The notes: generated by a model from the sequence alone, not told the origin. DNA of 32,000 bases from Thermosulfurimonas dismutans (GCF_001652585.1 NZ_LWLG01000003.1:1-32000); one strand, 5' to 3'; positions 10,424-21,685 are shown, counted from the first letter of the stretch. Translations and numbers: made by a program.

Positions 10424-11065
10424 ATGAACATTGTATTTTTAGGACCTCCGGGCGCCGGTAAAGGCACACAAGCTAAACGGATTACGGAAAAGTACGGTAT
10501 TCCCCAGATTTCCACTGGAGATATGTTTCGGGAACATCTTTCCAAGGGTACGGAGCTCGGGAAAAAGGCCAAGGAATACATGGAAAAGGGCCAATTGGTA
10601 CCAGACGAAATCGTGCTCGGTATGGTAGAGGAGCGGCTTAAACAGCCCGATTGTGAAAAAGGCTTTATTCTTGACGGTTTCCCTCGCACGGTACCTCAGG
10701 CTGAGGCTTTGGATGAAATGTTGGCCAAGTGGGGAAAGAAAATTGATTATGCCATTGCCATCGAAGTTCCGGATGAGGAGCTGGTCAAGAGGCTTACCGG
10801 ACGTCGGACTTGCAAAAACTGCGGTATGATGTATCATATCATATTCAAGCCTCCGAAGGAGGATAATAAGTGCGATGCCTGCGGAGGCGAATTGTATCAG
10901 CGTGCGGATGATAATGAAGAGACGGTAAGGAATCGTCTCAAGGTTTATCACGAATCTACGGCTCCCCTGATTGATTATTACGAGAAGAAGGGTGTGCTTC
11001 ACCGGATTGATGGTATGGGGAGCATTGATGAGATTTTTGAGCGAATAGTCAAGGTTCTAGGGTAA
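10424..11065 (+). CDS. adk: adenylate kinase (zinc-lid type)
   Basis: 213 aa; P-loop GPPGAGKGTQA; lid CKNCG...CDACGGEL. Confidence 0.96.
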   Translation: MNIVFLGPPGAGKGTQAKRITEKYGIPQISTGDMFREHLSKGTELGKKAKEYMEKGQLVPDEIVLGMVEERLKQPDCEKGFILDGFPRTVPQAEALDEMLAKWGKKIDYAIAIEVPDEELVKRLTGRRTCKNCGMMYHIIFKPPKEDNKCDACGGELYQRADDNEETVRNRLKVYHESTAPLIDYYEKKGVLHRIDGMGSIDEIFERIVKVLG

Positions 11066-11074
11066 AGTTTTTAG

Positions 11075-14698: not shown

Positions 14699-15334
14699 AT
14701 GAGACATCGCAAGTTGAGTCGTAGGCTAGTGACTAAGTGGGAACACCGAATTTCCATGATGCGTAACCAGGTTACGGACCTTTTACGTTATGGCAGGATT
14801 ACCACTACTCTGGCCAAGGCCAAGGAGCTACGCCGGGTGGCGGATAGAATGATCACCCTGGCCAAGCGCGGAGATCTGGCCTCCCGGCGCCGGGCGCTGG
14901 CGGTTATCCGGGACAAGGCCGTGGTGCGTAAGCTTTTTACGGAACTTCGTGAGAAGTACATGGATCGTCCGGGGGGCTACACCCGAATTATCAAGATTGG
15001 ACCCCGCCGTGGGGATGCGGCCATGATGGCCATTGTGGAGCTGGTGGAGGAAAAGCTCCAGCACAAGCGTTCCAAGAAGAAGATCGAGGCTGAAAAGAAG
15101 GCCGAAAAAGAGATTCGCGAGGCTTTAAAGAAAGAGGAGCCGAAACCTGCGGAGGAAACCCAACCTGCCGAGGAGGCGTCCGGGAGCCAGGAAGCGGCCC
15201 CGGCTGAAACCTCCGAGGCCGAAACTGCGGCTCCGGAAAAGACTCAGGACGAGGCCCAGGCTTCTACCTCTTCCGAGTCCGAAGAGGGCTCCGAACCCTC
15301 CGCCGAAACTTCCTCCAAGGAAGCCAAGTCCTAA
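14699..15334 (+). CDS. rplQ: 50S ribosomal protein L17 with long acidic C-terminal extension
   Basis: The N-terminal ~120 aa is canonical ([10 protein letters not shown]...[24 protein letters not shown]). It is followed by a ~90-aa K/E-rich then E/A/S/T/P-rich low-complexity tail. Confidence 0.94.
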
Positions 15335-15353
15335 ATTTCGGACTTATCACCCA

Positions 15354-15381
15354 GGGCCCGGAAACTTCCCGGGCCCTTTTC
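15354..15381 (+). terminator. Rho-independent terminator after rplQ
   Basis: Perfect 8-bp GC stem GGGCCCGG / CCGGGCCC with a 7-nt loop (AAACTTC), followed by TTTTCTATT. Starts 20 nt after the rplQ stop. Confidence 0.8.
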
Positions 15382-15392
15382 TATTAGTTTTT

Positions 15393-15453
15393 TCCTGACG
15401 CTAAAACTCAGCGTCCGGCGATCATGCCGGTCGGCTGAAATGGATTGTTAAGA
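15393..15453 (-). repeat. attC-like site (terminal, cassette E)
   Basis: Minus-strand read: TCTTAAC...inner arms (CAGCCGACCGGCATGATCGCCGGACGCTGAG)...GTCAGGA. It shares the CTGAA-N-ATTGTTA and ACG-N-AAACTCAGCG blocks with the other copies. Confidence 0.7.
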
Positions 15454-15456
15454 ATT

Positions 15457-15711
15457 TTAATATACTTCCCTTCGATGACCTACTTTTAGGATATAAATCT
15501 CCTTCTTTTTCCAGTCTACATTAAAAAGGACTCTGTAATTCCCTATTCTCAACCTGTAATCTGCTAAAGGATGAGTTTTTAAATGTTTTATTTGTGAAAT
15601 GTTTGGAAAATTTGCTAACTCTTCTATTCCTTGCTTAATTTTTTTCAAGTTCTTCCGATCAATTTTCTTCAAATCTTTAAATACGCTTTTGGCATAAATT
15701 ATTTTAAACAT
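15457..15711 (-). CDS. RelE/ParE-family type II toxin
   Basis: 84 aa; FKDLKKIDRKNLKKIKQGIEEL...YRLRIGNYRVLFNVDWKKKEIYILKVGHRREVY, the classic RelE/ParE C-terminal pattern. Overlaps the upstream small ORF by 8 nt. Confidence 0.85.
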   Translation of the reverse strand: MFKIIYAKSVFKDLKKIDRKNLKKIKQGIEELANFPNISQIKHLKTHPLADYRLRIGNYRVLFNVDWKKKEIYILKVGHRREVY

Positions 15712-15892
15712 TTAATTTTTTCCAAATTTCTTCATGAGTAAAAACCTCTCCATTTTCGATCTCTTTTTTTCTTTCTTCAATTTCTCTTTTAAGCTTTTGG
15801 TATTTTTCTTGCTTTAAAAGAATTTTGGCAAAATATATAATCTTTTCTTTATCTTCAGGATCAAGTTTGTTTAAGATATCCAATTTTTCCAT
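15704..15892 (-). CDS. putative antitoxin (by position, upstream of the RelE/ParE toxin)
   Basis: 62 aa, helical and charged. Translationally coupled to the toxin. GGAG Shine-Dalgarno upstream (AAGTTGGAGAAATATTATG). No family recognised by eye. Confidence 0.6.
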   Translation of the reverse strand: MEKLDILNKLDPEDKEKIIYFAKILLKQEKYQKLKREIEERKKEIENGEVFTHEEIWKKLNV

Positions 15893-15965
15893 AATATTTC
15901 TCCAACTTGCTTAAATCTTTATCTTGCGAAGTAGGACTTATTTTCTTTTTATCTCGGATCGTTCC

Positions 15966-16084
15966 ATTTGTGAAGTATACTCCTTAGCGGTCTATGCGGT
16001 CTTGTTGGGCTGGTAGGCCGGTCAAATATTTGAAAGCGTTTGCGGCTGGGGTTTTGCCAGGTTCGCTGAAGAGGTTTGTTATTA
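15966..16084 (-). repeat. degenerate attC-like site (cassette D / E boundary)
   Basis: Minus-strand read: TAATAAC-AAACCTCTTCAGCGAACC...GACCGCTAAGGAG-TATACTT-CACAAAT. The R''-side block CGCTGAAG-N-TTTGTTA matches the other copies and the inner arms CTCTTCAGCG / CGCTAAGGAG pair. The GTTRRRY box is lost. Confidence 0.45.
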
Positions 16085-16195
16085 CTGGAAGCATCTTTTG
16101 CTAGACACCAGAACCCTATGAATATCAAGGGTTTTGAGGTCTATAAAATGTCTACTCTTTGATGACCCCATTAATATTATTACCGTAACTTTCAT
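16082..16195 (-). CDS. hypothetical micro-ORF (37 aa) in a short cassette
   Basis: My translation: MKVTVIILMGSSKSRHFIDLKTLDIHRVLVSSKRCFQ. Strong Shine-Dalgarno (GAGGTGG, 4 nt before the ATG). The stop TAA lies inside the TAATAAC box, as in the other cassettes. No family recognised. Confidence 0.3.
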   Translation of the reverse strand: MKVTVIILMGSSKSRHFIDLKTLDIHRVLVSSKRCFQ

Positions 16196-16274
16196 GTTCC
16201 CACCTCGAATTTATGTTTTCTCTAACTTAGCTCTTTGTTTTGTATGACGAGAAAATTTTATTTTCATTATTATT

Positions 16275-16346
16275 TTCTAACGTCATGGGTCACTTGCCGC
16301 CAAGGAGCGCAGCGGATTGGCGGTCAAGTGCACCCAATTGTTAGCA
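16275..16346 (-). repeat. attC-like site (cassette C / D boundary)
   Basis: Minus-strand read: TGCTAAC-AATTGGGTGCACTTGACCGCCAATCCGCTGCGCTCCTTGGCGGCAAGTGACCCATGAC-GTTAGAA. Arms TTGACCGCCAA / TTGGCGGCAAG pair. Confidence 0.8.
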
Positions 16347-16348
16347 TT

Positions 16349-17215
16349 TTATTTTAATTCAATGAAAGCTTCTTCATTGTCTGTAAATAATTCTGCAATA
16401 TTATTATGATAAGTAGCTAGCCACGAATATTTGGACTTGATTTTATCGTTTTCTGTAGCATTATATGCATTTCTAATATTATTACCATGTTTTTTTAGCC
16501 AGTAGTCAATATTGTATTGATAACCTTCATTAATAATGCGTTGTCTTTCTTCTTTATTAGCATTATTATAGCGTTCAACTTGTTCTTTGGAATAACGCCA
16601 ATCCAAACCTTCAAGACATATGGTCATATAGTCCAAAAAAATAATTTCTTTATTATCAACTATTCCCTTTCTGAATATACTTAATGGATCTACTTCTGGA
16701 GCATACCATTTCCTATGTGGATGATTCGAGAAATATTCAAACACATCATTAGTTATTGCAATCACCGGCACACTAATGGATTGTTCTAAATGATATGCTT
16801 GCAATAAACTTTTACTAATTATAATATCTTGATCGCTATACCACCATCCGATATCAATTCCTCCCCTTAGAAAAATCGAGTCAAGTACACATGCAGCTTG
16901 AGAATAAGCAAGGCTAAGGAATTCCGACATAAGTGGATCAAAATCGCCTTCACTCTGGGTAGCCTTTGACTTGAGAGGAATATGTATGACCAAACAATCA
17001 GAAAAAGCTAATACTTTTTTGTTATATAATTTGTTTATGTGAGAAATAATTTTTTCTGTTGGTTTATAATAAAATTGTTTTTGAACGTGCCATAATTCTT
17101 TATAAATAGATTGTATCTCTGTAACAGTTTCAATCTTTGCAATCCTATTTCCAAATCCTAAAATATCAATAAATACGGTAATCCCAATGGATATATCTTC
17201 TGGTTTTATCATCAT
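16349..17215 (-). CDS. hypothetical protein with class-III nucleotidyl-cyclase-like motifs (integron cassette C)
   Basis: 288 aa. GITVFIDILGFGN (cf. F-x-D-I-x-G-F-T), VLAFSDCLVI (second acidic strand), FLRGGIDIGW (cf. R-I-G-I-H-x-G). The ~120-aa C-terminal region is unassigned. The ORF call is solid; the function is motif-level only. Confidence 0.8.
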   Translation of the reverse strand: MMIKPEDISIGITVFIDILGFGNRIAKIETVTEIQSIYKELWHVQKQFYYKPTEKIISHINKLYNKKVLAFSDCLVIHIPLKSKATQSEGDFDPLMSEFLSLAYSQAACVLDSIFLRGGIDIGWWYSDQDIIISKSLLQAYHLEQSISVPVIAITNDVFEYFSNHPHRKWYAPEVDPLSIFRKGIVDNKEIIFLDYMTICLEGLDWRYSKEQVERYNNANKEERQRIINEGYQYNIDYWLKKHGNNIRNAYNATENDKIKSKYSWLATYHNNIAELFTDNEEAFIELK

Positions 17216-17221
17216 TTCTTA

Positions 17222-17283
17222 TGCTAACGTCCAAACTCAACGGCTCGGCGTATAGCCGGATCCGCTGAAGCGAATTGTTAGGT
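17222..17283 (-). repeat. attC-like site (cassette B / C boundary)
   Basis: Minus-strand read: ACCTAAC-AATTCGCTTCAGCGGATCCGGCTATACGCCGAGCCGTTGAGTTTGGAC-GTTAGCA. The arms pair imperfectly, leaving unpaired bases. The LemA stop TAA is inside ACCTAAC. Confidence 0.85.
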
Positions 17284-17943
17284 TTCTTGTTTTTCTCTTT
17301 GCGATACACTCTCTAAAGCTTTTTCAACCTTAGCCGAAGCTTTTTCAGCTGCTTCTAAAACTTTTGAAGATGTGGTTTTTATAAGAGCCTTCAACATTTC
17401 TCCATCATCTGTACGAAATTCTTTTAAAGCTTCCACTGCATCTATTTCAATAGAAAAATATGGAGCTTCTTTAAATCCTAGTGTATGAGCTATAAAGACT
17501 GTTGGAATACTATTTCTAGTTGTATTGTATTCTCTAGCTACTGCATTATATTCTTCTCTCTTTTTCTGTAAATCATTTTCCACATTTTCTAGTTGTTTCA
17601 TTAACATTTGATATGTTTCGTTCGCCTTAAGCTCAGGAAAGTTTCTCATAATATTATTTAATTGCCCCAAAATTTTATCAGCTTTTTGGTAGGATGTCAT
17701 TATTTCTGTAATATTAGCTTCTTTTGATATTGTTATATATGTAAGCTTTTCGTGTGACCCATAAGCAGAAGCTATATCAATCAACTTATTTATTAGATCT
17801 AACCTCTTTTTCATTGCCACTAAAATATTTGAATGTGCTTCTTTTACTAAATGAGCTTTTCTCTGTAATGAGTTATACTGAATCCCCAAAAAAAACATTG
17901 TTCCTATTAAAATCAAGAAAACAAAAGACAATATATCAAGCAT
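17278..17943 (-). CDS. lemA: LemA family protein
   Basis: 221 aa. N-terminal TM helix, then YNSLQRKAHLVKEAHSNILVAMKKRLDLINKLID and FPELKANETYQMLMKQLENVENDL...YNAVAREYNTTRNSIPTVFIAHTLGFKEAPYF, the LemA signature blocks. Confidence 0.9.
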   Translation of the reverse strand: MLDILSFVFLILIGTMFFLGIQYNSLQRKAHLVKEAHSNILVAMKKRLDLINKLIDIASAYGSHEKLTYITISKEANITEIMTSYQKADKILGQLNNIMRNFPELKANETYQMLMKQLENVENDLQKKREEYNAVAREYNTTRNSIPTVFIAHTLGFKEAPYFSIEIDAVEALKEFRTDDGEMLKALIKTTSSKVLEAAEKASAKVEKALESVSQREKQET

Positions 17944-17961
17944 TTTAGGCCTCCATAACTT

Positions 17962-18285
17962 TTATTCATTTTTAGGTAATATAATTCCCATTTTTGCTTC
18001 AGCTATCTTAAAATTCGTGCCACTAATATCAACAGCCTTAAATCTTTTTTTAATTAATTCTTTAATATATAATTTATTATAAATAAAAGGAAACACAAAC
18101 CATGATAATCCGCCAGTGATAATAGCTAACAAAAAACTAATAATTGCCCACTTCCAATCACCTCTAAAAAGAGGGACAAAAACTTCAAAAAATAACATAG
18201 TCCATGAAAATCCTATTGGCGCCTCTTTTATTTCTTTGGTAACTGGATGTTGAAAAATAATTTTTCCGTAAGCCATAATCCACAT
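17962..18285 (-). CDS. small two-TM membrane protein (DUF2628-like)
   Basis: 107 aa. GFSWTMLFFEVFVPLFRGDWKWAIISFLLAIITGG resembles the GF-x-W-x-AFFF...W motif of DUF2628-type proteins. Lies 18 nt upstream of lemA in the same cassette. An alternative start is ATG 18276. Confidence 0.75.
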   Translation of the reverse strand: MWIMAYGKIIFQHPVTKEIKEAPIGFSWTMLFFEVFVPLFRGDWKWAIISFLLAIITGGLSWFVFPFIYNKLYIKELIKKRFKAVDISGTNFKIAEAKMGIILPKNE

Positions 18286-18345
18286 CCTAACGCCAAACCT
18301 CAGCGGCCCACTGTAAAGCGGGTCCGCTTAAGAGATTTGTTAGGT
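18285..18345 (-). repeat. attC-like site (cassette A / B boundary)
   Basis: Minus-strand read: ACCTAAC-AAATCTCTTAAGCGGACCCGCTTTACAGTGGGCCGCTGAGGTTTGGC-GTTAGGA. The stop codon of the 366-aa ORF is inside ACCTAAC. The next ORF's ATG abuts GTTAGGA. Confidence 0.85.
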
Positions 18346-19440
18346 GCTCACCTTAAAATCTTTTGACAACATTAACGAGGCCATAGAGGCACTAATAAAA
18401 CATATCCCTTTAATTTTTTTTGCTATTTTAAATCCTTCATTTCTGTAAGTTGAAAGCATTTCTGCTAATTTCCCTAATTTATCAGTTGATAAAACCATTT
18501 TTACAGCAGTTCCACTAAAAAAATGTCTTAGCTGAAAATGTTTTTTACCATTTTCATTTAATAAAATGCCATGGTCACCACTACAAATAAAAAACTCCCC
18601 TCCATTTCTACAAAGGCGACTTGTCATGTACAAACCAAATCCGGAATTGTGCCAAGGATCATTTCTATTAATTCTTCTCCCCTTGAAAACTTTACCAGAT
18701 ATACCAGGTAGCAAGGCCTGTTGAATTGCATCTGAGTGAGATTCTATTTTTAGATAAGGATTACTAGATAAGGCCTTTTTAATCCCTTTACCTGAGTCCA
18801 GTATTGCTATTTCCGCTTTATGATATTGTGGCCAATATTGAGCGCAGTACCATAGGTCAGGGGAATCGCTATGTTCTAAAATATTTCTTAGTATTTCTCT
18901 CAATGAATATGTTATTGTTTCAGCTAAATTTCCATATTTTTGCTGAGTTAATCTTATTGCTAACTCTTCAGATTTTGACTCTATAATTTGTTGGACTGGT
19001 GCCAAATTATCTTTAGCTTCTTTTTCAATATCCGATAACTTCCAAGAAGTTACTGGAAGATATGTACTACTCCCAAATGCTTCACCTGGTTTTTTACCGT
19101 GATCTAGATAAAAAGCCTTAAAAAAGCCCATATGGGCTGCATAATTTTTATTTTGATGGTTTTTACACCAAATACATCTGTGATCATTGAATTTTGAATA
19201 ATCTCGAATAATTTTGGCTACATAAATCATTGAAAATGGCTCAATTCTCCCCATTTGAGCAAAATCAATTACAACTTTATGATTTCGTGGGATAGAAAAT
19301 AAGTTGTCACAAAAGGCCAATACAGCTTCCAGTGATGGATTTTGCGGAAAATATACCAATGTCTTCATTATATGTTGCCTAACATATCTTTTATGCTTTC
19401 TTGGATAGCCCCCCTCTAAGGCTATATTAAATTTGGCCAT
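18340..19440 (-). CDS. hypothetical GHKL/HATPase-domain protein with STAS-like N-terminal region (integron cassette A)
   Basis: 366 aa. N-box-like LREILRNILEHS, G1 ILDSGKGI, G2 NSGFGLYM. The N-terminal KVVIDFAQMGRIEPFSMIYVAKIIRDY looks like an anti-sigma-antagonist (STAS) fold. An alternative start is M25 (19368), just after a GTTAGGC core. Confidence 0.8.
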   Translation of the reverse strand: MAKFNIALEGGYPRKHKRYVRQHIMKTLVYFPQNPSLEAVLAFCDNLFSIPRNHKVVIDFAQMGRIEPFSMIYVAKIIRDYSKFNDHRCIWCKNHQNKNYAAHMGFFKAFYLDHGKKPGEAFGSSTYLPVTSWKLSDIEKEAKDNLAPVQQIIESKSEELAIRLTQQKYGNLAETITYSLREILRNILEHSDSPDLWYCAQYWPQYHKAEIAILDSGKGIKKALSSNPYLKIESHSDAIQQALLPGISGKVFKGRRINRNDPWHNSGFGLYMTSRLCRNGGEFFICSGDHGILLNENGKKHFQLRHFFSGTAVKMVLSTDKLGKLAEMLSTYRNEGFKIAKKIKGICFISASMASLMLSKDFKVST

Positions 19441-19622
19441 ATATCAGAACTTCGCCAAAGTCAAACAGCTTTTTCAATAATTTTTTATGAAAAATTTTTT
19501 ATTTTTAAAATTTTAAAAGATTATTTAGAAATATCTTAAATAAAGAGCTTAAATCTCTCCAAAAAGGATGGTAGCTTTTTATGTAAACTTGAGAGAAGTA
19601 ATATAATTTTCTAATATTCCCT

Positions 19623-20215
19623 TTGGCGTGTAAGCAAAAATGGAAAAGGATAACTTATCTAGCCGTGGAAAGAAACGTGGCGCCCTCTACCCAGAACCAG
19701 GCCTTGAATGCCTTGCTCTTTTTCTACCGTAAGGTCCTCGAAAAAGACATCGCTTCATACATCGAGGCCGTAAAGGCCCGGGAGAGGCCAAGGTTTCCGG
19801 TGGTGCTTTCCGAGCTTGAGGAGACCTATTATCTAGTTTGTGTCCTGATGTACGGAGGAGGTCGCCTAGGAAGCCAGGCGGTAAGATTGTGCGTGAAAGA
19901 TCTTGATCTCGAACGAGGGCTTGTAACGGTCTATTCGGGGAAGGGTGATCGGGACCGGATAACCGTTTTTCCCAAGAGGCTTGTTCTGGAATTTGAAAAT
20001 TACTCGCCAGGGTGCGTAAAATCTACGAGCAGGGTTGGCGGACGGAGGGCGGCGGGGGGCCGCGGTGGTTAGTCAGCTGGATCGCTGAAGGGTTCTTTAG
20101 GGCCGGTTTTTTTCGGTTGAAGGGGCCATCGGCCCCGAATAGAATGTCCCTAGGGTCGGCTCTTCCTATACCCAGGGGTAAAAAGGCTTCAAGGAAATTC
20201 TTTGCGGAGCGTTCG
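19623..20215 (+). pseudogene. intI: integron integrase (IntI-like tyrosine recombinase) remnant, 5'- and 3'-truncated and frameshifted
   Basis: LAVERNVAPSTQNQALNALLFFYRKVL...RFPVVLS...RLCVKDLDLERGLVTVYSGKGDRDRITVFP is colinear with IntI1 (STHRQALAALLFFYGKVL...[24 protein letters not shown]). The reading frame switches near 20005 (VRKIYEQ...EGGGG continues in another frame). The ~55 N-terminal aa and the whole catalytic C-terminal half are absent. Confidence 0.75.
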
Positions 20216-20218
20216 AGC

Positions 20219-21685
20219 ATGGGTAAAGATCCCGGTGGGCAGGTCGGAGGGCTTCTTTCGTATCTGGCGCTGAAAGAATCTCTGGCTGAAATCCAAAACT
20301 TTTTGCAGGAGCTGGCCAGGAGGGGCGAGGTTTATGTCACCGGAGGAGCGGTAAGGGATATCCTGCGGGGAGATAGGGTAGGAGACCTGGACCTCACGGT
20401 GGTGGATCTCTCTCCGCGAGAGGTGGCGGAGGAGGCCGCAAGGAGGCTTTCCTGGGCTCTGGTTCCGCTTCACGAGGAGTTCGGAGTCTTCCGGGTGGCG
20501 CGCGGGAGTTTTAGCCTGGATATTTCCGGCCTTCGTCCCGGGGCTATGAATATTGAGGACGATCTTCGGTTGAGGGACTTTTCCTTCAATGCCCTGGCAG
20601 TTCCTCTTTCTAAAGCCCTTGAGAGATCGCCTTCGGAGTGGCCTCTTCTTGATCCCTGCCAAGGGCTTCGGGATCTTAAAGCTGGTCTGATCCGGGCTAT
20701 CTCTCGACAAAATCTTATAGATGATCCCTTGAGGATCTTAAGGGCCTATCGTTTTTACGCCTTGGGATTCGGAGAAATAGAGGCGGAGACCCGGAGGTGG
20801 CTTTCGGCAGAAAGGGCAAGGCTTTCGAAGGTAGCCCGGGAGCGCATTCTCTATGAGCTTATGCTCATTCTCGGCCGAATGGCTGGAGAGGCCTTTTCCC
20901 TTATGGCCGAAGACGAGGTTCTCTTCGAGATCTTTCCCGAATTCGCGGAAGCCCGGGGGGTGCCCCAACCCTCCTTCCATCACCTGGATGTTCTGGGCCA
21001 CAGCCTTCTCGCCCTCGCAAGAGCCGAGGAGGTCCTGCGGGCCCCGGGTAAGTTTTTCGGGGATCCCGAACCCTTCGCGGAACTTCTCTCAGACCCCGAG
21101 CGAAGGATAGCCGTCAAATTGGCCGCCCTTTTTCACGACCTCGGGAAACCGAGAACTTTTGCCGTTCGGGACCGGATCACCTTTTACGAACACGAAAAAG
21201 TGGGGGCCCGGATCTTTCTTGAGATGGCGGAACGATTGCGTTTCAAGAAGGATCTCGCTAAAAGGGTAGCCCATCTCATCCGGAACCACATGCGGCCCTT
21301 TCATTTACTTGCTGAAAAAGAAAAAGGCCGACTTACAGCCAGGGCCAAGAGGAGGCTTTTGAGGGATGTTCCAGAGTATCCCGATCTCTTTGTGGTGGCC
21401 ATGGCAGATGGTCTGGCGGCGAGAGGTCCGGACAAGGACCCAGACGAAGAGGAAAAACTTGCAGAATTTTTTAGGGAACTCCACGAGTTTTACCGAGAAA
21501 CCTTGCGGAAGGTGGAGAGGAAGAGACTGGTTACCGGCCGTGACCTCATAGAGATCTTCGGACTTGCGCCTGGTCCCATCTTCCGGAAACTCCTTGAAGC
21601 CGTAGAGGAGGCCCAGGTTGAGGGCCGGGTAAAGACCCGCGAAGAGGCCCTGGAGTATATCGCCGGAATCATAGATACCTTATAG
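20219..21685 (+). CDS. cca: CCA-adding tRNA nucleotidyltransferase (PolyA-pol head plus HD domain)
   Basis: GGAVRDILRGDRVGDLDL head motif, RLRDFSFNA, HD-domain HHLDVLGHSL...ALFHDLGKP. The track ORF starts at 20012, but its first 69 aa read through intI debris. ATG 20219 (or 20144) is the likely start. Confidence 0.85.
   Translation: MGKDPGGQVGGLLSYLALKESLAEIQNFLQELARRGEVYVTGGAVRDILRGDRVGDLDLTVVDLSPREVAEEAARRLSWALVPLHEEFGVFRVARGSFSLDISGLRPGAMNIEDDLRLRDFSFNALAVPLSKALERSPSEWPLLDPCQGLRDLKAGLIRAISRQNLIDDPLRILRAYRFYALGFGEIEAETRRWLSAERARLSKVARERILYELMLILGRMAGEAFSLMAEDEVLFEIFPEFAEARGVPQPSFHHLDVLGHSLLALARAEEVLRAPGKFFGDPEPFAELLSDPERRIAVKLAALFHDLGKPRTFAVRDRITFYEHEKVGARIFLEMAERLRFKKDLAKRVAHLIRNHMRPFHLLAEKEKGRLTARAKRRLLRDVPEYPDLFVVAMADGLAARGPDKDPDEEEKLAEFFRELHEFYRETLRKVERKRLVTGRDLIEIFGLAPGPIFRKLLEAVEEAQVEGRVKTREEALEYIAGIIDTL

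What the first reader, a model, noticed from the sequence alone, without database searches (positions are those of the whole stretch)
15393..20215. Decayed chromosomal integron wedged between the ribosomal superoperon (rplQ) and cca
An AT-rich block is punctuated by five GC-rich 60-120 bp imperfect palindromes (15393-15453, 15966-16084, 16275-16346, 17222-17283, 18285-18345). Read on the minus strand, each begins with an RYYYAAC-like box (ACCTAAC twice, TGCTAAC, TCTTAAC, TAATAAC). Each ends with a GTTRRRY-like box (GTTAGGA, GTTAGCA, GTTAGAA, GTCAGGA), except the 15966 copy, where it is lost. The inner arms pair imperfectly and leave unpaired bases, which is the attC architecture. The copies share blocks by eye (ACG-yc-AAACyTCArCG and GCTkAA-N4-5-ATTGTTAgg). 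All cargo ORFs are on the minus strand. Three stop codons lie inside the TAAC of the box and two others end 2-3 nt before it. Two ORFs start 0-6 nt after the GTTAG box, as expected for promoterless cassettes. Divergent from the array lies an IntI-like remnant at 19623-20215, truncated at both ends and frameshifted. The array is therefore probably frozen, with no functional integrase in cis. The cargo is much more AT-rich than both the attC sites and the host flanks, which suggests foreign or cassette-pool origin. Integron cassettes have been reported to carry compact anti-phage and stress modules, so this is the natural hunting ground in the window.
Basis: partly seen in the sequence, partly recalled or inferred. 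Interest (0 to 1): 0.85.

Follow-up and report, generated by a model that had tools for sequence, protein, structure and literature searches.

The report
Dead integron between rplQ and cca
A 4.7-kb relic of an integron (a bacterial gene-capture device) sits in the chromosome of the deep-sea vent thermophile Thermosulfurimonas dismutans; its integrase gene is broken and it still holds five captured gene cassettes, so it is a clean new example of a known kind of element.

Summary
The window is Thermosulfurimonas dismutans S95, since the cargo proteins are 100% identical to its proteins. An AT-rich block (GC about 0.30, against 0.52-0.60 in the flanks) lies between rplQ and cca. These two genes are adjacent in two related genera. 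Nothing else in the 32 kb scores below E 0.5. The fifth site (15966-16084) keeps only its R''/L'' half and fails both models. The remnant at 19650-~20045 matches the integron-integrase model TIGR02249 at 96 bits, against about 25 bits for Xer models. It lacks about 64 N-terminal codons and the whole catalytic half, and it carries a frameshift. An attI-like junction (G|TTAGGC, 19383-19377) is conserved with the integron that carries the closest IntI relative. Cargo: a GHKL-ATPase protein that is also a VCR-flanked cassette in Vibrio cholerae, a small membrane protein plus LemA, a protein with a class III cyclase fold and no family, a 37-aa ORF, and a ParE/RelE toxin-antitoxin pair. Verdict: a degenerate chromosomal integron (attC cluster plus intI pseudogene), a new member of a known kind, of modest interest.

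The parts
14699..15334 (+). rplQ (ribosomal protein L17 with a long acidic C-terminal tail); left chromosomal flank
   Evidence: PF01196, E 1.3e-40. Adjacent to cca in Thermodesulfatator and in a Thermodesulfobacteriaceae MAG.
15353..15377 (+). rplQ terminator-like hairpin, 15 nt from the last attC
   Evidence: Nine-pair GC-rich stem followed by a T run.
15393..15453 (-). attC site 1, the distal end of the array; its R' box reads GTCAGGA (GTC, not GTT)
   Evidence: R1 gives 21.9 bits, E 2e-4. It belongs to repeat families D1-D3.
15457..15711 (-). ParE/RelE-family toxin (84 aa), cassette 5
   Evidence: PF05016 at 48.8 bits, cut-off 23. TIGR02385 at 28.0 bits, cut-off 27.9.
15704..15892 (-). Putative antitoxin (62 aa), overlapping the toxin gene by 8 nt
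   Evidence: The position and overlap are typical of type II TA operons. Family hits are weak only: RelB/ParD E 0.019 and Unstab_antitox E 0.22.
15966..16084 (-). Decayed attC site 2. The R''-L'' half (16048-16084) is conserved; the R' box is destroyed.
   Evidence: Reference copy of repeat family D1 and aligned in A1. Not found by R1 or R2. Fold z-score about 0.
16082..16195 (-). 37-aa ORF, the only ORF of the short cassette 4; its stop is the first TAA of TAATAAC
   Evidence: No Pfam match. GAGGTG lies upstream of the ATG.
16275..16346 (-). attC site 3 (72 nt, the longest stem)
   Evidence: R1 gives 27.8 bits, E 2.4e-6. DNA fold -20.4 kcal/mol, z -5.4.
16349..17215 (-). orf288 (TDIS_0737), cassette 3: class III nucleotidyl-cyclase fold plus a helical C-terminal domain; no described family
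   Evidence: AF2 pLDDT 95.6. Foldseek matches adenylyl, guanylyl and cytidylyl cyclases at E 5e-6 to 1e-4. D17, D73 and R117 are invariant. No Pfam, NCBIfam or PADLOC hit.
17222..17283 (-). attC site 4
   Evidence: R1 gives 37.4 bits, E 1.7e-9.
17278..17943 (-). LemA-family protein (221 aa), second gene of cassette 2
   Evidence: PF04011, E 1.1e-29.
17962..18285 (-). orf107, a small hydrophobic protein and first gene of cassette 2; its ATG overlaps the last base of the R' box of site 5
   Evidence: Only a weak DUF6693 hit.
18285..18345 (-). attC site 5
   Evidence: R1 gives 43.2 bits, E 2e-11. Fold z -3.5 on the bottom strand and -4.8 on the top strand.
18340..19368 (-). Cassette 1 gene (342 aa from Met25 of the 366-aa ORF): an unassigned N-terminal alpha/beta domain plus a C-terminal GHKL (HATPase_c) domain
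   Evidence: 711 homologues, almost all 338-343 aa. HATPase_c is found in 41 of 47 family members. AF2 pLDDT 81, with Foldseek hits to SpoIIAB and TopoVI-B. It is VCR-flanked in V. cholerae.
19377..19412 (-). attI-like junction, CTATCCAAGAAAGCATAAAAGATATG|TTAGGC; the cassette array begins at TTAGGC (19382 downwards)
   Evidence: 88% identity over 25 nt (E 0.006) to L003 9376-9400. That block is in the same position, between the related intI and its first cassette, and similarity ends after the shared GTTAGG core.
19413..19649 (.). AT-rich non-coding spacer between attI and the intI remnant. It is about 430 bp shorter than in L003, so the 5' end of intI and part of the promoter region are missing.
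   Evidence: Stops in all frames. The distance from the attI core to the start of the IntI match is 267 bp here, against about 700 bp in L003. One Pc-like match on the minus strand at 19539-19510 (9 of 12) is not significant in AT-rich DNA.
19650..20045 (+). intI pseudogene fragment, equivalent to IntI1 residues about 65-205, with a 9-residue deletion and one frameshift near 20000
   Evidence: TIGR02249 at 96.4 bits, profile positions 50-174 of 315. 42% identity to IntI1 and 58% to the L003 IntI. VRKIYE continues in another frame.
20219..21685 (+). cca (CCA-adding enzyme with an HD domain); right chromosomal flank
   Evidence: PF01743, PF01966, PF13735 and PF12627. 48-49% identical to the Cca next to rplQ in L001 and L002.

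Best explanation
Window 15393-~20045 is a small, degenerate chromosomal integron of Thermosulfurimonas dismutans, inserted between rplQ and cca.

Layout. From right to left it consists of:
- a dead integron-integrase gene fragment on the + strand;
- a shortened AT-rich spacer that still carries the attI junction (G|TTAGGC);
- a divergently oriented array of five cassettes on the minus strand.
The cassettes are bounded by four structurally intact attC sites and one decayed site. The last site abuts the rplQ terminator.

How it worked (established integron mechanism, inferred here). IntI bound the folded bottom strand of an attC hairpin, which here is the window's + strand. It recombined that strand with attI at G|TT. 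This inserted promoterless cassettes next to attI, where a promoter in the intI-attI region drives them. Cassette 1, the GHKL-ATPase gene, is therefore the most recent insertion.

Present state. The integrase has lost about 64 N-terminal codons and the whole catalytic and IntI-specific half. The array therefore cannot be shuffled in cis. Site 2 has lost R', which fuses cassettes 4 and 5. Site 1 reads GTC at the crossover triplet. The distal ParE/RelE toxin-antitoxin cassette probably helps to retain the block.

Shown: attC identity and structure, the IntI affinity and truncation of the remnant, the empty site in relatives, and cassette status of the cassette 1 gene in Vibrio. Inferred: past recombination activity, expression, and the stabilising role of the toxin-antitoxin pair.
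For: (1) A covariance model (R1) built only from nine class 1 attC sites taken from enterobacterial plasmids hits 18285-18345 (43.2 bits), 17222-17283 (37.4), 16275-16346 (27.8) and 15393-15453 (21.9). All four hits are full length and on the minus strand. The next hit in 64 kb of searched strand has E 0.52.

(2) On eight sites from the window, L003 and L027, 87.8% of cells pair, against 23-42% when partners are slid. Eleven of 22 pairs show compensatory changes, and the two bulge columns of the class 1 model are kept.

(3) The remnant scores TIGR02249 at E 1.9e-27, against Xer models at about 1e-5. Of the 40 plasmid hits sampled across the ranking, the annotated ones are almost all IntI1 or other integron integrases.

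(4) The closest IntI relative (58% identical, metagenome contig L003/L004) carries the IntI-specific block ALEKKYPNAGKEWGCFWVFP. It is flanked by attC sites of the same sequence family and shares the attI block.

(5) rplQ and cca are adjacent, with no attC hits, in Thermodesulfatator (L001) and in a Thermodesulfobacteriaceae MAG (L002).

(6) Homologues of cassette 1 (51-53% identical) lie between 128-129-nt VCR sites in a V. cholerae cassette array, and next to an attC in V. crassostreae, with the stop codon in the R'' box as in the window.

(7) The ORF stops and starts are in register with the R'' and R' boxes.
Against: - IntegronFinder's own attC model and its intI_Cterm profile could not be run. 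R1 is a surrogate built from one closely related attC type.
- Site 2 fails both models.
- Site 1 has GTC in place of GTT.
- The attI assignment rests on a single 25-nt match (E 0.006) in AT-rich DNA.
- No promoter is demonstrated.
- Only 32 kb of a 2.1-Mb genome was searched, so genome-wide dispersal of the repeat and a second intI are not excluded.
- The pair-count alignment was fitted to the model, which biases it towards that structure.
Confidence: 0.92

Rival explanations
1. The array is not frozen. An intact IntI encoded elsewhere in the genome, or on an incoming element, still excises and reshuffles the cassettes bounded by sites 3, 4 and 5. This differs from the main reading only on present activity.
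For: Sites 3-5 keep intact R'' and R' boxes and score well. attC sites are recognised across IntI types, and about half of CALIN elements are in genomes that encode IntI elsewhere (PMC4889954). By inference from the ribosomal operon direction and the GC skew, the attC bottom strands lie on the probable lagging-strand template, which is the excision-prone orientation (PMC5371416).
Against: The only T. dismutans protein returned by the IntI-fragment search was the remnant itself, although that search is word-limited. Site 1 (GTC) and site 2 (no R') show unrepaired decay. The genome papers mention no integrase.
Confidence: 0.12
2. The GC-rich palindromes are a REP- or MITE-like repeat, or simply intrinsic terminators of an AT-rich genomic island, and are unrelated to integrons.
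For: They are GC-rich hairpins directly after ORFs. One of them (17258-17241) is picked up by the terminator scan. The rest of the genome was not searched.
Against: They match a model trained on bona fide attC sites, including the RYYYAAC and GTTRRRY ends, the unpaired spacers and the bulge positions. They have no T tracts. They occur only in the array, in one orientation, next to an IntI fragment and an attI-like site.
Confidence: 0.02
3. The block is an island inserted by a phage-type or Xer-type tyrosine recombinase, and 19650-20045 is the remnant of that recombinase.
For: Pfam sees only the generic domains Phage_int_SAM_4 and Phage_integrase. NCBI names the product a 'phage integrase N-terminal SAM-like domain-containing protein'.
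Against: The integron-integrase model scores 70 bits above every Xer model. The nearest full-length relative has the IntI-specific insertion. No tRNA gene and no significant flanking direct repeat is present.
Confidence: 0.02

Closest known systems
CALIN (cluster of attC sites lacking an integron integrase) next to an intI pseudogene, as defined by Cury et al. 2016 (PMC4889954)
   Same: It is a short array of 4-5 attC sites (the CALIN mean is 5) with unknown cargo and no functional integrase, beside a decayed intI.
   Different: Only 15 of 279 CALIN had a recognisable intI pseudogene, and these were detected through the IntI-specific C-terminal region. Here that region is deleted and only the N-terminal and central part survives, so that screen would probably miss the remnant. 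The attI junction is retained.
Class 1 mobile integron and its 60-nt aadA-type attC sites
   Same: The layout is the same: intI divergent from attI and the cassettes. The attC sites have the same length and architecture: a 7-nt R box, a 5-nt spacer (AATTC in site 4, as in attC-aadA1), bulges at model positions 16 and 23, and a short loop.
   Different: This element is chromosomal and not on a transposon. It carries no resistance genes, its integrase is only 42% identical and is dead, and its hairpins are weaker at 37 C (-8 to -20 kcal/mol against -16 to -26).
Vibrio cholerae superintegron (a sedentary chromosomal integron)
   Same: Both are chromosomal and carry mostly uncharacterised cargo and toxin-antitoxin cassettes. 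The cassette 1 gene family is shared.
   Different: The V. cholerae sites seen here are a uniform 126-129-nt VCR family (eight in the 10-kb contig L020). The window has five cassettes with 61-72-nt attC sites and no working integrase.
Xanthomonas chromosomal integrons with inactivated intI
   Same: Both are small arrays at a fixed chromosomal site beside a housekeeping gene, often with a degraded integrase. [quoted passage not shown]
   Different: The phylum differs (Thermodesulfobacteriota), the host is an extreme thermophile, and the insertion site is rplQ-cca.

Membership tests
attC recombination site | Inverse core sites RYYYAAC (R'') and GTTRRRY (R') at the two ends | tested here: met
   Sites 3, 4 and 5 read TGCTAAC/GTTAGAA, ACCTAAC/GTTAGCA and ACCTAAC/GTTAGGA. 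Site 1 reads TCTTAAC/GTCAGGA (GTC variant). Site 2 has TAATAAC but no R'. The feature is met for three sites, nearly met for one and not met for one.
attC recombination site | Imperfect inner dyad (L''/L') with unpaired central spacers and extrahelical bases on the '' side | tested here: met
   The CM alignments keep the 5-nt and 6-nt unpaired spacers and the two bulge columns. Of all cells, 87.8% pair, against 23-42% in the slid controls, and 11 pairs carry compensatory changes. The alignment was fitted to the model.
attC recombination site | Scores with an attC covariance model | tested here: met
   A surrogate model built from nine class 1 attC sites gave four of five sites at 21.9-43.2 bits, and no other hit in the window at E<0.5. 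IntegronFinder's own model was not available.
attC recombination site | Located at the 3' end of cassette ORFs, all in one orientation | tested here: met
   Each site follows an ORF stop by 0-3 nt or contains it, and all sites are on the minus strand.
attC recombination site | Bottom strand recombined by IntI | not testable with these tools
   This needs a recombination assay.
Integron integrase (IntI) | Closer to the IntI profile than to Xer or phage recombinases | tested here: met
   TIGR02249 at 96.4 bits, against at most 26 bits for XerA, XerC and XerD. The score is below the full-length cut-off of 265 bits because only profile positions 50-174 of 315 are present.
Integron integrase (IntI) | IntI-specific additional domain near patch III | tested here: not met
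   This region is absent from the window, since homology stops near 20045. It is present in the closest relative, L003 (ALEKKYPNAGKEWGCFWVFP).
Integron integrase (IntI) | Complete catalytic residue set of tyrosine recombinases (R, K, H, R, H, Y) | tested here: not met
   Only the box I Arg and the Lys region survive. The segment that carries H, R, H and Y is deleted. The fragment is a pseudogene, not a functional family member.
Complete integron (functional platform) | attI site next to intI, at the start of the array | tested here: inconclusive
   A GTTAGGC core 8 nt before the cassette 1 ATG, preceded by a 25-nt block 88% identical to the corresponding place in L003 (E 0.006). This is a single comparison in AT-rich DNA.
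Complete integron (functional platform) | Pc promoter reading into the cassettes | tested here: inconclusive
   There is one 9-of-12 sigma-70-like match at 19539-19510 on the minus strand. The whole region gave 31 matches, against 17.5 +/- 4.7 in shuffled sequence.
CALIN (Cury et al. 2016) | At least two attC sites with no functional integron integrase nearby | tested here: met
   Four scoreable attC sites lie within 3 kb, and the only nearby integrase is a fragment. Definition taken from PMC4889954.
Type II toxin-antitoxin, ParE/RelE | Toxin passes the curated family threshold, and a small upstream overlapping partner gene is present | tested here: met
   PF05016 at 48.8 bits (cut-off 23) and TIGR02385 at 28.0 bits (cut-off 27.9). 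A 62-aa upstream ORF overlaps the toxin gene by 8 nt. Its antitoxin family assignment is weak (E 0.019 and 0.22).
Pycsar-type or class III nucleotidyl cyclase (considered for orf288) | Cyclase fold with a metal-binding Asp pair, a sequence-profile match, and a partner effector gene | tested here: not met
   The fold matches, and D17, D73 and R117 are invariant. There is no Pfam, NCBIfam or PADLOC profile hit, and no effector gene is in the cassette. The column that I align by eye with the cyclase Asn-Arg pair is not among the conserved columns (that reading is inference). It resembles a cyclase but is not filed as one.

The most novel reading that the evidence does not exclude
At least one of the two uncharacterised single-gene cassettes is a new compact anti-phage or stress module. 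One candidate is the class III cyclase-fold TDIS_0737 family, which has 166 cluster representatives at E<=1e-30 and no described family. The other is the GHKL-ATPase family of cassette 1. In addition, the locus would record that an integron platform with canonical 60-nt attC hairpins operated in an extreme thermophile and drew on a cassette pool shared with mesophilic marine Vibrio.
Probability: 0.2. Interest if true: 0.6.

Novelty: new member of a known kind. Interest (0 to 1): 0.35.

Why it matters
No paper in the searched library links Thermosulfurimonas to integrons, and the two genome papers mention neither an integron nor an integrase. The locus therefore extends documented integrons to an extremely thermophilic member of the Thermodesulfobacteriota from a deep-sea vent.

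It shows three things. An integron relic can be recognised from an integrase fragment that lacks the IntI-specific region used in standard pseudogene screens. attI and attC families are shared with an integron in another metagenome. One cassette gene family circulates between this host and the Vibrio cholerae superintegron.

In practical terms, it flags two uncharacterised protein families as candidates for functional testing. It does not change the understanding of how integrons work.

Tried and rejected
- Rfam gathering scan of the window: no hit, so it offers no test of attC.
- Exact-sequence look-ups for RplQ and for the NCBI integrase fragment: not on record.
- A home-made RYYYAAC...GTTRRRY plus hairpin scanner. 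It finds real sites in class 1 arrays and VCR arrays but has poor specificity and sensitivity in the window, where it found only site 5 plus false hits. It was not used as evidence.
- Family-specific model R2, built to rescue site 2: it still does not find it.
- Folding at 74 C with DNA parameters gave implausible structures and was discarded. Only the 37 C values are quoted.
- My guess that GGRRGAAVVSQLDR (about 20050-20090) is the displaced IntI C-terminus: local alignment scores of 21-24, not significant, rejected.
- Target-site duplication at the island ends: only two shared 8-mers, which chance would give.
- Metagenome scan with a family-specific attC pattern: three matches, of which one is a scoreable attC. 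This added little.
- The PADLOC hit of cassette 1 to DrmA (E 1.3e-7) covers 88 positions of a 1750-position model. I treat it as local similarity, not membership.
- DNA-level comparison of the intI remnant with L003: no match.

Full report
**Source and setting.** The cargo proteins are 100% identical to Thermosulfurimonas dismutans proteins: P0018, and P0138, which is TDIS_0737. The integrase fragment is 99% identical to an NCBI T. dismutans entry. T. dismutans S95 is an extreme thermophile from the Mariner vent field in the Lau Basin. It is grown at 65 C and has a genome GC of 50.1% (PMC4911364). The window carries the end of the ribosomal protein cluster (rpsK, rpsD, rpoA, rplQ) on the + strand, then an AT-rich block, then cca.

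**Observation check.**
- GC falls from 0.52-0.60 to 0.27-0.36 between about 15400 and 19600, and rises again at about 19650.
Sites 1, 4 and 5 and the right half of site 2 form direct-repeat families and align.
- The R'' and R' boxes, the stop codons inside or just before TAAC, and the ORF starts at or just after GTTAG all check out base by base.
- Folding is significant for site 3 (z -5.4) and site 5 (z -3.5 and -4.8). It is marginal for site 1, not significant for site 4 taken alone, and absent for site 2.

**Are they attC sites?** Rfam gave no hit, and IntegronFinder was not available, so I built an independent test.
- The integrase fragment, used as a tblastn query, found class 1 integrons on plasmids.
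- From nine fetched class 1 arrays I extracted the sequences directly downstream of known cassette genes (aadA1, aadA2, aadA11, aadB, catB3, qacL and three gcu cassettes).
- I aligned nine 60-nt attC sites and built covariance model R1 with the textbook structure: R box, 5- and 6-nt unpaired spacers, an L box with two bulges, and a loop.
- With filters off, R1 finds exactly 18285-18345 (43.2 bits, E 2e-11), 17222-17283 (37.4 bits), 16275-16346 (27.8 bits) and 15393-15453 (21.9 bits, E 2e-4). All four are full length and on the minus strand. The next best hit in the window has E 0.52.
- Site 2 is found neither by R1 nor by a family-specific model R2. It keeps the R''-L'' half (16048-16084) and an L'-like CCGCTAAGG, but its R' is gone, so cassettes 4 and 5 are now fused.
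- On eight sites from the window, L003 and L027, 87.8% of cells pair, against 23-42% for slid partners. Eleven of 22 pairs show compensatory changes. The caveat is that this alignment was fitted to the model.

**The integrase remnant.**
- The stretch 19650-20009 translates to a fragment that matches TIGR02249 (integron integrase) at 96.4 bits over profile positions 50-174 of 315. The XerA, XerC and XerD models give 23-26 bits.
- It is 42% identical to IntI1 and 39% identical to a cyanobacterial IntI.
- After a frameshift near 20000, homology continues (VRKIYE...) to about 20045 and then stops.
- About 64 N-terminal codons are missing, as are the IntI-specific insertion and the H-R-H-Y catalytic segment. 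Nine residues are deleted internally.
- Only 170 bp remain before the cca start codon, so this is a true truncation and not a gene-calling artefact.

**Closest relative and attI.**
- The best homologue (58% identical) is on the metagenome contigs L003 and L004.
- There the gene is nearly full length and has the IntI-specific ALEKKYPNAGKEWGCFWVFP block, although it also carries a stop codon and frameshifts.
- It is flanked by attC sites that R1 scores. These belong to the same sequence family as the window's sites.
- The window's GCATAAAAGATATG|TTAGG, 8 nt upstream of the probable cassette 1 start (Met25, 19368), is 88% identical over 25 nt to the equivalent place in L003. Similarity stops after the shared GTTAGG core, as expected for a conserved attI joined to different cassettes.
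- The distance from attI to IntI residue 65 is 267 bp in the window and about 700 bp in L003. About 430 bp, including the 5' end of intI, have therefore been lost.

**Empty site.** In Thermodesulfatator (L001) and in a Thermodesulfobacteriaceae MAG (L002), rpsD, rpoA, rplQ and cca are contiguous. About 0.3-0.4 kb separates the RplQ and Cca matches, and R1 finds no attC there. The integron is therefore a lineage-specific insertion or retention.

**Cargo.**
- Cassette 1. This family has 711 detected homologues of about 340 aa with a C-terminal GHKL ATPase domain. In V. cholerae it lies between 126-129-nt VCR sites in a regular cassette array, and in V. crassostreae next to a 97-nt attC. It is thus a circulating integron cassette.
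- Cassette 2. A small hydrophobic protein plus a LemA-family protein.
- Cassette 3. TDIS_0737 has no Pfam, NCBIfam or PADLOC match. Its model is confident (pLDDT 95.6) and has a class III nucleotidyl-cyclase fold, with an invariant Asp pair and an invariant Arg. The family has 166 representatives at E<=1e-30. Its members lie in variable contexts: beside a phage-type integrase, near a RES domain gene and an SMC-like ATPase, and on plasmids.
- Cassette 4. Only a 37-aa ORF.
- Cassette 5. A ParE/RelE toxin with a small overlapping partner gene. No cargo protein matches a known defence family.

**Mechanism.** The architecture is that of a canonical integron. IntI recombines the folded bottom strand of attC with attI at G|TT, and the cassettes are expressed from a promoter upstream of attI. 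Those steps are established for integrons and are only inferred here. What is shown here is that the integrase is dead and that two of the five sites are damaged. The array is therefore fixed unless an IntI acts in trans. By inference from gene orientation and GC skew, the attC bottom strands lie on the probable lagging-strand template. That orientation is associated with small arrays and high excision (PMC5371416).

**Comparison and novelty.** In the terms of Cury et al. 2016 this is a CALIN with an adjacent intI pseudogene. Only 15 of 279 CALIN had a recognisable pseudogene, and these were detected through the C-terminal IntI-specific region that is missing here. No paper in the library links integrons with Thermosulfurimonas, and the genome papers do not mention one. 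It is a new member of a known kind. The residual interest lies in the host (an extreme thermophile), in the cross-phylum cassette sharing, and in two uncharacterised cargo families.

Noticed in passing
window 16349-17215 (-): TDIS_0737 is a 288-aa protein with a confidently predicted class III nucleotidyl-cyclase fold (pLDDT 95.6), an invariant Asp pair and a conserved C-terminal KYxWLxxYHN helical domain. It has no Pfam, NCBIfam or PADLOC family. The family has 166 representatives at E<=1e-30, and the listed hits are mostly about 260-330 aa.
   Followed up: partly
window 18340-19368 (-); L020 3022-4047; L023 639-1670: The cassette 1 GHKL-ATPase family is 50-55% identical between this thermophile and many Gammaproteobacteria. 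It is a VCR-flanked cassette in V. cholerae. One homologue (P0135, 603 aa) is fused to a PLD-like nuclease domain. The annotated 366-aa ORF probably starts at Met25.
   Followed up: partly
L003 9930-11067 (metagenome contig DOMB18-1 scaffold_1800): The closest IntI relative is itself interrupted by a stop codon and frameshifts. It has an attC (11007-11067) on its far side as well, so that intI lies between attC sites on both sides. The contig is AT-rich throughout, unlike the window's intI remnant, which has GC of about 0.5.
   Followed up: partly
window 15060-15334 (+): RplQ carries a C-terminal extension of about 90 residues, rich in Glu, Ala, Ser and Lys. This tail does not align with the RplQ of L001 or L002.
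   Followed up: no
window 15393-19383, relative to its flanks: The cassettes are transcribed against the direction of the ribosomal operon, so the attC bottom strands are on the window's + strand. If the + strand is the leading strand (positive GC skew in the flanks), the bottom strands lie on the lagging-strand template. That is the minority orientation among sedentary chromosomal integrons.
   Followed up: partly
window 19370-19387: ATATGTTGCCTAACATAT is a perfect 7-bp inverted repeat centred on the attI core. It is formed by attI-side and cassette-side sequence together and is not present in L003.
   Followed up: no
window 20012-20218 (+): The longest ORF for cca starts at GTG 20012 and overlaps the intI remnant. 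The relatives align only from residue 16-24 of the ATG-20219 product, so the upstream extension is probably an artefact. Two small hairpins, each followed by a T-rich stretch (20073-20104), lie in between.
   Followed up: no
L017-L019 (hydrothermal metagenome contigs): The nearest homologues of cassette 1 (77% identical) follow an N6/N4 DNA methyltransferase gene. They are followed by CACCTAAC...AATAACGTCAAGG, an attC-like end with the same GTC variant as window site 1. R1 does not score it.
   Followed up: no
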